Below, piece by piece: positions 7,991-13,657 of a DNA stretch of 13,719 nt. Each line of letters starts with the position of its first letter. Position 1 is the stretch's first letter. Source of the DNA: Promethearchaeota archaeon (GTDB lineage Archaea; Asgardarchaeota; Lokiarchaeia; Sigyniarchaeales; SOKP01); NCBI GenBank assembly GCA_030603385.1, contig JAUVXW010000050.1, positions 1 through 13,719 of the forward strand. The letters are read 5' to 3'. The notes under the pieces are model-generated. The model saw only the letters and a program-made list of their open reading frames with translations. It made no database searches and had not been told where the DNA came from. The position numbers and the translations under genes were made by a program.

Positions 7991-8515
7991 CTATTTATTA
8001 ATCATTTTATCTAAAATTCGTTTTGTTAATTTGATAAAAGCTTCTTCAACATTCTTACCAGTTTTAGCGGATGTTGTAATTAAATCCATATTATTACTCT
8101 GAGCATATTGACTCGCTTCTTTATCTGTAATTTTTATCTGATTTTCTAAATCAGATTTGTTACCTATTAAAAGTAAAGGTTGTTCTCCTCTCGTATTTTT
8201 AAAACTTTCAATCCACTCATTAAGTTTATCAAAAGAATTTCTGTCTGTCAAATCAAAAATTACTAACCCGCCATTAGCGCCTTCTAAATATAGTTTCCTT
8301 AGAGATCTAAAAGACTCTTGGCCCCCAAGATCCCAGATTTGGGCAGAAACACCGCCATTTATATCTATATCTTTTTTTAGAAGATTAACACCAAGAGTTG
8401 CTTTATAATTTTCTCTGAATTTATTCTCTATAAAGCGATAGACCAATGATGTTTTACCTACATTCTTTTCGCCCAAAAGAGTTATCTTTATAACCCACTT
8501 AGGTTCTTCGTGCAT
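7991..8515 (-). CDS. Rab-like small GTPase (uninterrupted)
   Basis: G1 GEKNVGKTS, G2 ATLG, G3 WDLGGQ, G4 NKSD, G5 SAK; no C-terminal Cys prenylation motif. Confidence 0.93.
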   Translation of the reverse strand: MHEEPKWVIKITLLGEKNVGKTSLVYRFIENKFRENYKATLGVNLLKKDIDINGGVSAQIWDLGGQESFRSLRKLYLEGANGGLVIFDLTDRNSFDKLNEWIESFKNTRGEQPLLLIGNKSDLENQIKITDKEASQYAQSNNMDLITTSAKTGKNVEEAFIKLTKRILDKMINK

Positions 8516-8837: not shown

Positions 8838-9872
8838 ATGCAAACCTTTAGGATTAATGAATATTTAGAAGTGCGATTGGAAGGGAAGAATACTAACATC
8901 TATGTGAAAGGAAAACCAATTAGAACTTGTAAATACCTGCTTCTCAACATTCCTGCTGAAGAGATTGAGACTTTTGATGAGATAGAGTCAATCGATGAAG
9001 CGGCTGTAAAGCTTGATCACCAGCTCCATAGCAAACGTATTCCTTTAATACCTCCTGAAGTAGAATTCTGGGGTCATTGTTCAAACCTTCAGGTATGGGC
9101 AGAAAATAATTATGATACTCGATTGATCCATAGTAATTTGGCATTTCCCCTTTTGGAACAGATCTACCAAGAAGGAAACTCGGTAGCAACAAAAGTGTTT
9201 AAAGAAGAGATTGCCAAACGGTATGAGAGCGGGTATCAACCAGTTATTGAGTATCTTAGAGAAAAAAACTTCCTAAGACTTCTTTCGACAGCAGAACTCT
9301 CTGCCGTAGGTATTGATCCTAAATTTTTCCTCAAAGACGGGCATTTAGATATTATGATCTTGGGAGATGTAGGAGTAGGGAAACGAACCCTCATTGACTA
9401 TCTTATTGATGGAGAATATAAGGATGCGTCTGCTCGTTCCCCAAAATTGGCAGATGTAAGTCTTTTCGTACAGCATAAATGGCTTACGGTGGATGAAACC
9501 CCTTATCTTTACTTTTTCTATACTTTTGCCAATAGTTTACTAGAGAAACCGATGTTTCTTCATCTGTTTAGGAGAACATTAGGGATTATTCTAGTTTACG
9601 ATATCACCAATAGACAAAGTTTTAATAATCTCTCCCGTTGGGTACCATTCGTGCAAGATATTTTCAAAGGACGTGAAATGGCACCAATACTATTAGTTGG
9701 CACGAAAAGTGACCTTGAAAATGAAAGAGTGGTAAATCGAGAAGAAGGGGAAAAGGTAATGGAGCGATACAAATTGCTAGATCATTACGAGTGTTCGGCG
9801 AAACATGGAGAAAATACTAAAGGAATATTCGAAAAATTAGCCCAAACAATCATTCATAAAATGACATTATAG
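8838..9872 (+). CDS. Fusion of a Loki-type N-terminal domain (FWGHCSNLQVWAE) and a degenerate Rab-like GTPase domain
   Basis: The N-terminal F.INEY...CKYLLLNIP...SIDEAA...FWGHCSNLQVW.ENNYDTRLIHSNLAFPLL domain is one I recall from expanded Lokiarchaeal families. The C-terminus has GDVGVGKRT, LVYDITNRQSF, TKSD and CSAK. Confidence 0.8.
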   Translation: MQTFRINEYLEVRLEGKNTNIYVKGKPIRTCKYLLLNIPAEEIETFDEIESIDEAAVKLDHQLHSKRIPLIPPEVEFWGHCSNLQVWAENNYDTRLIHSNLAFPLLEQIYQEGNSVATKVFKEEIAKRYESGYQPVIEYLREKNFLRLLSTAELSAVGIDPKFFLKDGHLDIMILGDVGVGKRTLIDYLIDGEYKDASARSPKLADVSLFVQHKWLTVDETPYLYFFYTFANSLLEKPMFLHLFRRTLGIILVYDITNRQSFNNLSRWVPFVQDIFKGREMAPILLVGTKSDLENERVVNREEGEKVMERYKLLDHYECSAKHGENTKGIFEKLAQTIIHKMTL

Positions 9873-10945: not shown

Positions 10946-11518
10946 TTAAGCTTCTTTGTATTTATGATATAAATTTTTAATTATTGCTTGAAAGGCTTGA
11001 AACACACCTTGTCCGGTCTTAGCAGATGTCTTGTAATATCCAAGAAAGTCCTTTTCTTTCACTATCTTTTCAACCTTCTCATCATCTACCTCATTTTCGT
11101 CAACCAAATCGGTTTTATTGCCGAATAAAACAATGGGGAGTTCTCCGGTATAACTTTTGATATCCTCATGCCAATTTGCGATATTATTAAAACTTTCATC
11201 ATCTGTATGGCTGAATACTATGATAGCGGCTTTTGAGCCTTTATAAAACGTCGGTCTCATGAAATCAAATTCTCTTTGACCTGCAATATCCCAAAAAAAT
11301 AATTTGCAATTGTTTCCTTCAATTTCTTCATCATATTTCGAAAATTGTGCCCCCAAAGTTTTAATATAATCTTTTTTAAAGCTTCCTTGAGTATATTTTT
11401 TAATTAGGCTCGTCTTTCCAACGGCTCCATCGCCGATGACAATGATCGTCAACGATTAATTATCGAAGACAGTAATCTTAAAGACAAAGCCTTTTGCAAC
11501 ATCATCATTTTTTCCCAT
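10946..11518 (-). CDS. Rab-like small GTPase split by a 30-nt insert: exon 1 11472..11518, exon 2 10946..11441; spliced product 180 aa
   Basis: ATG at 11518 with SD GGAGTGA reads MGKNDDVAKGFVFKITV-[FDN*SLTIIV]-IGDGAVGKTS in a single frame. G2 TLG, G3 WDIAGQ, G4 NKTD and G5 SAK are intact. Confidence 0.88.
11442..11471 (-). other. Candidate 30-nt BHB-like (HBh') archaeal mRNA intron
   Basis: Sequence 5'-UGUCUUCGAUAAUUAAUCGUUGACGAUCAU-3'. It has a 4-bp central helix GAUU/GAUC, a 3-nt bulge ACU, and intron stems GUC/GAC and CGAU/AUCG. It contains an in-frame UAA (11456-11458), and excision restores KITVIGDGAVGKT. Confidence 0.7.
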
Positions 11519-11523
11519 TTAAT

Positions 11524-11530
11524 TCACTCC
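11524..11530 (-). promoter_or_regulatory. Shine-Dalgarno site for the split GTPase
   Basis: GGAGTGA lies 5 nt upstream of ATG 11518 on the minus strand. Confidence 0.7.
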
Positions 11531-12634: not shown

Positions 12635-13657
12635 TTAAATTAATTTTCCATTTTCCATTATAGTTCTTTTAGTACCTTCTTTATATTCTACAGTAATATT
12701 TGCGTTAGGAGCAGTAACAAAATCCCAATGCATTTGAGAGGTCGAAGTTCCACCGAAGGATTTATTAAATCCAAATGCAACGTGAACACTTCCATTTATT
12801 TTTTCATCAGTAAGAATATATCCAATAGCTTTTGTTATAACAGGATTACATCCTATACCGAGTTCTCCAATATTATATGTCCTAAGTTCAGGAACATTAT
12901 TTGCTCTATCGATCTGTTCACTTTGCTTAAAAGCATCAGTTAGAACATCTAAATTAGAGTCTGCTGTGACTTTCTCAAGTAATAATTTTCCATCTTTAAA
13001 AGGCAATTCTACGTTTTTTACAAATTTATGAGTGTATCTTTCTTTAGTCAAAGGACAAAATATCTTTCCTTCTCCTCGAGTCTCTATAGGTGCGAAAAAG
13101 ACTTCACCCGCAGGTAGATTTCCTCCTAGATCACCCAAAGCTATTTGTTCTTCTGATAAAATTCCGTCATCAAGTATCTTTACTCTATTTTCGACCGAAA
13201 CCCAGAATTCTGTACCATAACTATCGCTCACATACACTTTTTTTGCATTTTCGAACTTATCTCCTAAATTTTTCACTATTCTTGTGAACTCTTCGGTTGG
13301 AATACACATTCCATCTACAATGAATTTTTCAAATAAATTATAATCGATATTAAAAAATTTAGCTGCTTTTTTCGAAGGCCAAGCGGCATAACACCATTTC
13401 TTACCAGGAGCATATTCCTCTTTAAAACCATAGAGTATATTCCTAATAGGTGCTATTGATTTTTGATAAGCCTTAAGTTTTTCTTTTGGAGCTTTATAGC
13501 GAATAGAAGGATCTTCAAGTTGTTCTATTGCGATGTAGGCATCAATATTCTCTATTAATTTCAAATAATGCAGAGGTGGGGTAATTTTATAAATGAATGA
13601 AGAATTATAAAGTCTTTCAACGCCATTCGCTTGTAAAATCTTTCTACCCGCTTTTTT
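12635..13657 (-). CDS. M29 (thermophilic metalloprotease/aminopeptidase T) family protein; 5' end unclear, possibly truncated
   Basis: GNLPAGEVFFAP, GELGIGCNP, DEKINGSVHVAFG and HWDFV motifs. The frame stays open upstream of TTG 13564 to a TAA at 13658-13660, with no in-frame ATG. Confidence 0.8.
   Translation of the reverse strand, partial: KKAGRKILQANGVERLYNSSFIYKITPPLHYLKLIENIDAYIAIEQLEDPSIRYKAPKEKLKAYQKSIAPIRNILYGFKEEYAPGKKWCYAAWPSKKAAKFFNIDYNLFEKFIVDGMCIPTEEFTRIVKNLGDKFENAKKVYVSDSYGTEFWVSVENRVKILDDGILSEEQIALGDLGGNLPAGEVFFAPIETRGEGKIFCPLTKERYTHKFVKNVELPFKDGKLLLEKVTADSNLDVLTDAFKQSEQIDRANNVPELRTYNIGELGIGCNPVITKAIGYILTDEKINGSVHVAFGFNKSFGGTSTSQMHWDFVTAPNANITVEYKEGTKRTIMENGKLI

What the first reader, a model, noticed from the sequence alone, without database searches (positions are those of the whole stretch)
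11423..11530. Candidate EndA-spliced (bulge-helix-bulge type) micro-intron inside an Asgard small-GTPase mRNA
Seen: from the SD-preceded ATG 11518 the frame reads MGKNDDVAKGFVFKITV-FDN*SLTIIV-IGDGAVGKT. A 30-nt in-frame block with a stop thus sits in beta1 just before the P-loop, while the paralog at 7991..8515 runs WVIKITLLGEKNVGKT with no insert. Hand folding gives a central 4-bp helix GAUU(11477-74)/GAUC(11447-44) and a 3-nt bulge ACU 3' of it. Next come GUC/GAC, a UU/UU mismatch, CGAU/AUCG and an AAUUA loop. AUU follows the helix on the other strand, and a distal exon-exon helix GGCUUUGUC(11491-83)/GAUGGAGCC(11431-23) closes the structure. Established: archaeal EndA cuts after the second nt of each bulge, and RtcB ligates. 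Applying that rule (AC|U and AU|U) removes exactly 11442..11471 and gives AAG AUU ACU GUC AUC GGC = KITVIG. Archaeal protein-gene introns are very rare (the crenarchaeal cbf5 intron is the classic case), and I know of none in an Asgard eukaryotic-signature gene. Inference: GTPase expression depends on tRNA-type splicing, conceptually like HAC1/XBP1 non-spliceosomal splicing. Caveat: the exon-proximal helix is not canonical (A-G mismatch), so the motif is the relaxed HBh'/BHL form.
Basis: partly seen in the sequence, partly recalled or inferred. Interest (0 to 1): 0.95.

Follow-up and report, generated by a model that had tools for sequence, protein, structure and literature searches.

The report
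tRNA-type mini-intron in Asgard GTPase gene
A Rab/Ras-like GTPase gene of a Loki-type Asgard archaeon is split by a 30-base insert shaped like a tRNA intron; comparison with 53 related genomes indicates it is cut out of the mRNA by the tRNA-splicing enzymes, which in print is confirmed for only one archaeal protein gene (cbf5).

Summary
On the minus strand an SD-preceded ATG (11518) opens a 20-codon frame that ends at TAA 11458-56. A 30-nt block (11471..11442) separates it from a complete Ras domain.

Evidence for an mRNA intron:
- The gene is single-copy in all 54 species genomes of the genus. In 45 it has no insert and reads exactly the predicted spliced product (…KGFVFKITVIGDGAVGKT…).
- Nine genomes carry an insert at this spot: six of 30 nt and three of 29 nt, the latter frameshifting and with splice sites 2 nt further on.
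- All nine fold as a 4-bp central helix, 3-nt bulges and a 9-bp inner hairpin, with compensatory changes.
- Cutting after the second bulge base restores the conserved frame in all nine.
- Six of nine have no start codon between the stop and the P-loop.
- Exon 1 shows only synonymous change.
- The genome encodes a two-subunit EndA with the broad-specificity loop, and RtcB.

No RNA data could be obtained, so splicing itself is inferred (about 85%). The nearest published case is the crenarchaeal cbf5 intron. This scan has already noted similar mini-introns elsewhere in this genome (histone, moxR, uL11, alba) and in Rab-like, EF-2 and YchF genes of other Asgard genomes.

The parts
11525..11530 (-). 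Shine-Dalgarno-like GGAGTG, 6 nt before the ATG
   Evidence: Read directly. A GAGTGA/AAGTGA-type motif sits at the same place in the orthologs.
11472..11518 (-). Exon 1: ATG to the second base of the Thr codon (MGKNDDVAKGFVFKI + AC)
   Evidence: The KGFVFKIT block shows 139 synonymous and 0 non-synonymous pairwise differences among the nine intron carriers.
11474..11477 (-). Ha: exon strand (GAUU) of the 4-bp central helix
   Evidence: Pairs with 11447-44. 100% of cells are paired in the six 30-nt carriers. All six carriers use AAG-AUY here, against 9 of 45 intronless genomes.
11471..11473 (-). Bulge 1 (ACU); predicted 5' cut between 11472 and 11471
   Evidence: Invariant ACU in the 30-nt class. 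The cut rule 'between 2nd and 3rd bulge residue' is from PMC2738675.
11442..11471 (-). The 30-nt intron, holding the in-frame TAA at 11458-56
   Evidence: Absent from 45 of 54 orthologs, which read the joined sequence. Unique in the genome, so not a repeat element. Identical in four other assemblies.
11448..11470 (-). Inner hairpin h' (9 positions per arm with a UU.UU internal mismatch, loop AAUUA)
   Evidence: 5 of 9 pairs show changes on both sides across carriers, and 0 of 500 shuffles reach the covariation score. RNAalifold predicts the same helix unprompted.
11444..11447 (-). Hb: intron strand (GAUC) of the central helix
11441..11443 (-). Bulge 2 (AUU); predicted 3' cut between 11442 and 11441
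   Evidence: The bulge is closed by the central helix only; no adjacent outer helix exists in the 30-nt class.
10946..11441 (-). Exon 2 with stop: rest of the G domain (GDGAVGKT, WDIAGQ, GNKTD, TSAK)
   Evidence: Pfam Ras E = 1.8e-46. dN/dS is 0.03-0.10 between carriers.
11450..11452 (-). TTG inside the intron, which gene callers take as the start (168-aa product)
   Evidence: The 168-aa form is what public collections hold. It lies 3 nt after the TAA and has no SD. It is present in only three of nine carriers.
11423..11491 (-). Span of a possible distal exon-exon helix (11491-83 with 11431-23) enclosing the motif
   Evidence: 89% of cells are paired among 30-nt carriers, with no double changes. 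RNAalifold does not choose it. Its strands lie in the G-F-V and D-G-A codons, so it may reflect coding sequence only.

Best explanation
The 30 nt at 11471..11442 (minus strand) are a bulge-helix-bulge intron of the relaxed HBh' type in the mRNA of a Rab/Ras-family GTPase of a Lokiarchaeial (Promethearchaeota) archaeon.

Proposed mechanism:
1. The last bases of exon 1 (GAUU) pair with the intron's 3' end (GAUC) to form the 4-bp central helix.
2. A 9-position intron hairpin stacks on one side. A 3-nt bulge lies 3' of each strand of the central helix.
3. The two-subunit splicing endonuclease cuts after the second base of each bulge (AC|U and AU|U).
4. RtcB joins the exons, giving a 180-aa protein that reads ...KGFVFKITVIGDGAVGKT..., and probably circularises the 30-mer.
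5. Unspliced message yields only a 20-residue peptide from the SD-ATG.

Shown here: the anatomy, the intronless orthologs, the covariation, purifying selection on both exons, and the presence of the enzymes.
Inferred: the cleavage and ligation themselves.

The intron is polymorphic within the genus. It occurs as two classes whose splice sites are 2 nt apart. The 30-nt class travels with a flanking exon haplotype, which suggests gain or loss through homologous recombination as well as precise deletion.
For: 1. The ortholog is single-copy in all 54 genomes of the genus. 45 have no insert and encode exactly the predicted junction.
2. Nine genomes carry an insert at this spot: six of 30 nt (G000, G048, G013, G069, G020, G068) and three of 29 nt (G012, G056, G065). 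A tenth carrier is contig L117.
3. Cutting after bulge base 2 restores ...KITVIGDGAVGK in all nine, including the 29-nt class. There the insert shifts the frame, and moving both cut sites one base to either side would replace the conserved Val by Asp or Leu (the shifted codons are read directly from the sequence).
4. Covariation: the central helix is 100% paired. 5 of 9 inner-helix pairs have changes on both sides. No shuffle of 500 reaches the score, and slid registers drop to 15-68% paired. RNAalifold finds the same structure unaided. The 29-nt class also has an outer helix (5 of 6 pairs).
5. Six of nine carriers have no ATG, GTG or TTG between the last in-frame stop and the P-loop.
6. Exon 1 (KGFVFKIT) shows 139 synonymous and 0 non-synonymous pairwise differences among carriers. 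Exon 2 dN/dS is 0.03-0.10.
7. Synonymous exon sites that build the central helix go with intron presence: AAG-AUY in 6/6 carriers against 9/45 intronless, and AUC-AC in 3/3 against 2/45 (the genomes are not phylogenetically independent).
8. Enzymes:
   - There are two EndA paralogues.
   - One is most similar to the A. pernix alpha subunit (3P1Z_B, E = 8e-36). It keeps Tyr/His/Lys and the Crenarchaea-specific loop, with Lys-Pro-Arg aligned to K44-P-R46.
   - The other lacks the catalytic His.
   - There is one RtcB.
   - Asgard (alpha-beta)2 EndA carrying this loop is reported in PMC5829648.
9. The insert is identical in four independent assemblies.
Against: - No RNA evidence exists: no spliced read, no circular 30-mer, no peptide across the junction.
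- In G000 the bulge at the 3' splice site has no adjacent outer helix, so the motif is the relaxed form. Cleavage by this organism's enzyme is assumed from crenarchaeal enzymes.
- The fold is not thermodynamically exceptional (z = -0.97 and -1.45).
- In G000, G048 and G013 a TTG 3-6 nt after the stop gives a full Pfam Ras match. In these three genomes some protein could therefore be made without splicing.
- The carriers are related, so the covariation and association counts overstate independence.
Confidence: 0.85

Rival explanations
1. The insert is not spliced. It is a tolerated insertion, and the GTPase is translated from the TTG at 11452 by termination-reinitiation after the 20-codon upstream frame. 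The product is a 168-aa protein that lacks the N-terminal extension.
For: The TTG ORF matches the Pfam Ras profile from position 2. The TAA and TTG are 3 nt apart. Public gene calls use this form.
Against: Six of nine carriers have no in-frame start there, and the 29-nt class is frameshifted. Exon 1 stays under strict protein-level selection in carriers. This model does not explain the compensatory changes that keep the hairpin and central helix. There is no SD before the TTG.
Confidence: 0.07
2. Translational bypassing: ribosomes take off at GUC 11470-68 and land at GUC 11440-38, skipping 30 nt, as in phage T4 gene 60.
For: In G000 identical GUC codons flank a 30-nt gap, with a stop and a hairpin soon after the take-off site.
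Against: Matching take-off and landing codons are absent in G020 and G068 (GUU/GUA). In the 29-nt class the skip is not a whole number of codons. The conserved features are those of a BHB, not of a hop signal.
Confidence: 0.02
3. The interrupted copies are pseudogenes, or the insert is a mobile DNA element or an assembly error.
For: The distribution is patchy, needing at least 8 state changes on the gene tree.
Against: Both exons are intact and under purifying selection in all carriers. It is the only ortholog in each genome. The insert sequence is unique in the genome. It is identical in four independent assemblies. Ten MAGs carry it.
Confidence: 0.03

Closest known systems
BHB intron in the cbf5 (pseudouridine synthase) pre-mRNA of Crenarchaeota (Watanabe 2002; Yokobori 2009, PMC2738675)
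   Same: A short intron lies inside a coding sequence. It usually has an unconventional or relaxed BHB and is cut between bulge residues 2 and 3. The enzyme is a heterotetrameric EndA. The product is non-functional unless spliced. The intron has been lost secondarily in some lineages.
   Different: The phylum (Asgard/Lokiarchaeia) and the gene (a eukaryote-like small GTPase) are different. The intron is polymorphic among species of one genus. Two classes have splice sites 2 nt apart. cbf5 splicing has cDNA and in vitro proof; this case has none.
Non-canonical tRNA introns of Asgard and Thermoproteales (PMC11291895; bioRxiv 10.64898/2026.10.13.758758; PMC5829648)
   Same: The motif grammar is the same (hBHBh', HBh'). 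So is the presumed enzyme pair, and the pattern of repeated gain and loss. Asgard genomes are known to be rich in such introns.
   Different: [quoted passage not shown]
BHB intron in the 5' UTR of Haloferax volcanii HVO_1309 (PMC7714728)
   Same: An EndA substrate within an mRNA, confirmed by circRNA-seq and in vitro cleavage.
   Different: It lies in the untranslated leader, not in the coding sequence, and does not interrupt a protein.
HAC1 / XBP1 unconventional splicing (my own knowledge, not checked here)
   Same: Non-spliceosomal endonuclease cuts at small stem-loops in an mRNA, followed in metazoans by RtcB ligation. Splicing changes the reading frame or the product.
   Different: The endonuclease (Ire1) and the motif are different, and the splicing is stress-regulated. 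No regulation is shown for the archaeal intron.

Membership tests
Archaeal BHB (EndA-dependent) intron | Central helix of exactly 4 bp between the exon end and the intron's 3' end | tested here: met
   GAUU/GAUC in G000. 100% of cells are paired in both classes.
Archaeal BHB (EndA-dependent) intron | Two 3-nt bulges on opposite strands flanking the central helix | tested here: met
   ACU and AUU in G000. The geometry is the same in all nine carriers. Bulge 2 of the 30-nt class is closed on one side only.
Archaeal BHB (EndA-dependent) intron | At least one flanking helix (h or h') | tested here: met
   The inner helix h' has 9 positions, 5 of them with compensatory double changes.
Archaeal BHB (EndA-dependent) intron | Strict hBHBh' form: outer exon-exon helix next to the 3' bulge | tested here: not met
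   In the 30-nt class the positions next to the bulge read A.G, A-U, U.C, U-A, so G000 is HBh' (relaxed). The 29-nt class has 5 of 6 outer pairs.
Archaeal BHB (EndA-dependent) intron | Cutting after bulge base 2 on both sides gives a functional joined RNA | tested here: met
   The joined frame equals the sequence of the 45 intronless orthologs in all nine carriers.
Archaeal BHB (EndA-dependent) intron | Host encodes an EndA able to cut relaxed motifs, and an RNA ligase | tested here: met
   An alpha-like and a His-less beta-like paralogue are present. The CSL Lys-Pro-Arg aligns to A. pernix K44-R46. RtcB scores 558 bits. Activity was not assayed.
Archaeal BHB (EndA-dependent) intron | Spliced RNA and/or excised circular intron observed | not testable with these tools
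No spliced-form protein of G000 is among the 15 listed cluster members.
Ras/Rab-type small GTPase | Ras-family G domain with G1, G3, G4 and G5 motifs | tested here: met
   Pfam Ras E = 1.8e-46. GDGAVGKT, WDIAGQ, GNKTD and TSAK can be read. Relatives are annotated 'Rab family GTPase'.

The most novel reading that the evidence does not exclude
This intron is one visible member of a genome-wide, evolutionarily mobile population of EndA/RtcB-spliced micro-introns in Lokiarchaeial mRNAs.
- Such introns are gained at codon contexts that can supply half a BHB.
- They are lost by precise deletion.
- They are passed between species by homologous recombination together with flanking exon sequence. Here the AGY serine codon 27 nt downstream accompanies all six 30-nt introns, even in G020 and G048, whose gene bodies cluster with TCN genomes.

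The closest archaeal relatives of eukaryotes would then routinely splice protein-coding messages with the tRNA machinery.
Probability: 0.5. Interest if true: 0.88.

Novelty: new member of a known kind. Interest (0 to 1): 0.75.

Why it matters
- In the papers I could search, endonuclease-mediated splicing inside an archaeal coding sequence is confirmed only for cbf5. A well-supported case in an Asgard eukaryotic-signature GTPase extends it to the lineage nearest to eukaryotes.
- Gene callers hide such introns. Here they report a 168-aa TTG-started protein.
- The polymorphism within one genus gives a rare natural series for studying how protein-gene introns are gained, lost and moved: intron present, precisely deleted, or replaced, and two classes 2 nt apart.
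- The case is directly testable by RT-PCR, circRNA sequencing or an in vitro EndA assay.

Tried and rejected
- Spliced product in public collections: the 90% cluster holds the 168-aa TTG form and intronless relatives. No exact spliced G000 product is among the 15 members listed of 44.
- Generic genome-wide census in G000: I scanned for BHB-like motifs whose excision joins two open frames. It gave 1,713 candidates against 1,602-1,788 for decoy excision lengths, so there was no enrichment. The scan cannot count introns without homology. It did recover this intron and the uL11 one. No second convincing case turned up among the roughly 67 Ras-like matches in G000.
- Repeat or mobile element: the insert and its halves are unique in the genome.
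- Joint alignment of the 29- and 30-nt classes: MAFFT aligns them by exon homology or not at all, so I analysed them separately.
- Rfam and ARAGORN find nothing in the window.
- Thermodynamic stability alone is not significant.
- I first doubted the bulge polarity (bulges 3' of each central-helix strand). I checked it against the canonical 37/38 tRNA intron layout from my own knowledge and against the stated cut rule in PMC2738675.

Full report
**What is in the sequence.** The window is a whole 13,719-nt contig (C1) of a 3.9-Mb, 30.7% G+C genome. On the minus strand, GGAGTG (11530-25) precedes ATG 11518. The frame reads MGKNDDVAKGFVFKITVFDN and stops at TAA 11458-56. The same frame then continues as SLTIIVIGDGAVGKT… to the stop at 10948-46. 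ORF finders start this gene at TTG 11452. That 168-aa product already covers the Pfam Ras profile from position 2 (E = 1.8e-46), and it is the form that public collections hold. It is not unusually stable (z = -0.97 and -1.45). Motifs of this quality occur at about 3.9e-4 of all position/length combinations in this AT-rich genome. A single copy therefore proves little.

**Comparative evidence.** Record titles place the relatives in Promethearchaeota (Lokiarchaeia-type Asgard MAGs). The gene is single-copy in all 54 species genomes of the genus.
- Nine carry an insert at this spot. Six are 30 nt long (G000, G048, G013, G069, G020, G068), with the 5' splice site after AC of the Thr codon. Three are 29 nt long (G012, G056, G065), with the splice site 2 nt further on (ACA G|). 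Contig L117 is a tenth carrier, of the 29-nt type.
- All share one architecture: a 4-bp helix between the exon end and the intron's 3' end, a 3-nt bulge 3' of each strand, and an inner hairpin of 9 positions per arm with a 4-5-nt loop.
- Applying the published rule (cut between bulge residues 2 and 3; PMC2738675) restores …KITVIGDGAVGK in all nine.
- The 29-nt class shifts the frame. Moving both of its cut sites by one base either way would replace the conserved Val by Asp or Leu; I read this from the sequence.

**Covariation.**
- 30-nt class: the central helix is 100% paired. 5 of 9 inner pairs show changes on both sides (for example CGAU/AUCG to CAAU/AUUG, and wholly different arms in G020 and G068). 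No shuffle of 500 reaches the covariation score. Slid registers fall to 15-68% paired.
- RNAalifold, given only the alignment, predicts the same central helix, bulge and hairpin.
- 29-nt class: it adds an outer exon-exon helix (5 of 6 pairs), which makes it nearly a full hBHBh' motif.
- In G000's class no helix lies next to the 3' bulge, so the motif is HBh'.
Its two strands are the G-F-V and D-G-A codons, so I cannot separate it from coding constraint.

**Is splicing needed?**
- Six of nine carriers have no ATG, GTG or TTG between the last in-frame stop and the P-loop. An intact G domain can then be made only by joining exon 1.
- Exon 1 is under strict protein-level selection in carriers: 139 synonymous and 0 non-synonymous pairwise differences in KGFVFKIT. 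Exon 2 has dN/dS of 0.03-0.10.
- Synonymous exon sites that form the central helix go with intron presence. AAG-AUY occurs in 6/6 carriers of the 30-nt class against 9/45 intronless genomes. AUC-AC occurs in 3/3 carriers of the 29-nt class against 2/45. The genomes are related, so these are not clean statistics.
- In G000, G048 and G013 a TTG just after the stop could allow reinitiation and a shortened protein without splicing. I keep this as the main rival for G000 (about 7%).
- Ribosomal hopping fits G000 (GUC…GUC) but not G020, G068 or the 29-nt class.
- A pseudogene, a repeat element or an assembly error is excluded by three results: selection on both exons, uniqueness of the insert, and base-identical copies in four independent assemblies.

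**Machinery.**
- G000 has two EndA paralogues and one RtcB.
- The C44 protein is closest to the A. pernix catalytic alpha subunit (3P1Z_B, E = 8e-36). It keeps the Tyr/His/Lys positions.
- In the Crenarchaea-specific loop, its Lys-Pro-Arg aligns to K44-P45-R46. K44 is the residue shown to confer cleavage of non-standard motifs (PMC3241643).
- The C9 protein has Thr where the catalytic His sits, as expected for a structural beta subunit.
- This matches the report that Asgard archaea carry (alpha-beta)2 EndA with the L1 loop (PMC5829648).
- HBh' is the relaxed form that even the constrained M. kandleri enzyme can cut (same paper).

**Evolution.**
- On a tree of exon 2 the three states need at least 8 changes.
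- The 30-nt intron is linked to a flanking haplotype. All six carriers have an AGY serine codon 27 nt downstream. 39 of 45 intronless genomes, and all three 29-nt carriers, have TCN.
- G020 is 88-90% identical overall to G015, G010 and G023. In the 60 nt around the intron, however, it matches the carrier G068 (28/30 and 28/30 identities) rather than those relatives (19-23/30). G048 behaves the same way relative to G060.
- Intronless G019, G051 and G061 keep the AGY haplotype, which looks like precise deletion. G002, G060 and others have TCN, which looks like replacement.
- I read this as gain or loss by homologous recombination with co-conversion of exon flanks, plus precise loss. This is inference from one short gene.
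- The two classes, 2 nt apart and unrelated in sequence, suggest either two gains at a favourable codon context or intron sliding.

**What is known.** The papers I could search state that cbf5 is the only confirmed BHB intron inside an archaeal coding sequence (PMC7714728; PMC2738675). The Haloferax HVO_1309 intron lies in a 5' UTR. Asgard work so far concerns tRNA introns. No paper found links BHB introns to Asgard mRNAs.

**Earlier notes of this scan.** Notes report similar mini-introns in this same genome (histone, moxR, uL11, alba, a mutase subunit, hdrB). Others report them in Rab-like, EF-2 and YchF genes of other genomes. I treated these as leads. My own scan independently re-found the uL11 case at C41:68127..68091. 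My generic scan could not count introns, because decoys scored equally.

**Verdict.** The interpretation as an EndA/RtcB-spliced mRNA intron is strongly supported by comparative evidence (about 85%). It is a new member of the cbf5-type kind, in a new phylum and gene, with an unusually informative presence/absence polymorphism.

Noticed in passing
G000 contig C41:68091-68127 (minus strand; outside the window): A 37-nt BHB-like insert (central helix UGGG/CUCA, bulges AGU and AAU) lies just upstream of the only uL11 N-domain match. Excising it joins ...KALVTGG to SASGGPPIGPAVGP....
   Followed up: partly
window 11412-11414 (AGC, Ser codon of GKTS) and the same codon in loci of 53 relatives: The AGY serine codon accompanies all six 30-nt introns, while most intronless genomes have TCN. 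G020 and G048 are mosaics whose intron-flanking 60 nt match other carriers rather than their nearest relatives. This suggests recombination with exon co-conversion.
   Followed up: partly
L025, L059, L060, L117 (orthologs in G012, G065, G056 and a DZ2M.159 contig): A second intron class of 29 nt has splice sites 2 nt downstream of the 30-nt class, a different central helix (UCAC/GUGR) and a near-complete outer helix. This points to independent gain or intron sliding at the same codons.
   Followed up: partly
whole genome G000: ARAGORN calls only 22 tRNA genes (9 with anticodon-loop introns) in a 94%-complete genome. Many tRNA genes are probably hidden by non-canonical introns, in line with reports of heavily interrupted Asgard tRNA genes.
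   Followed up: no
window 12635-13564 (minus strand): A 309-aa M29 aminopeptidase-like ORF matches the Pfam profile only from position 87 of 406 and starts at a TTG. The 155 nt upstream, up to the contig end, show no obvious missing N-terminal piece.
   Followed up: partly
window 7991-8515 (-), 8838-9872 (+), 10946-11518 (-): Three Ras-family genes lie within 3.5 kb. One is a 344-aa protein with about 170 unassigned N-terminal residues. They sit next to a thioredoxin-like gene, a V4R/DUF2507 gene and a 230-aa TBP-domain protein. The genome gives about 67 Ras-like matches.
   Followed up: no
orthologs in 16 of the 54 genomes (e.g. L066-L072): The P-loop reads GNGAVGKT instead of GDGAVGKT in one intronless clade.
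   Followed up: no
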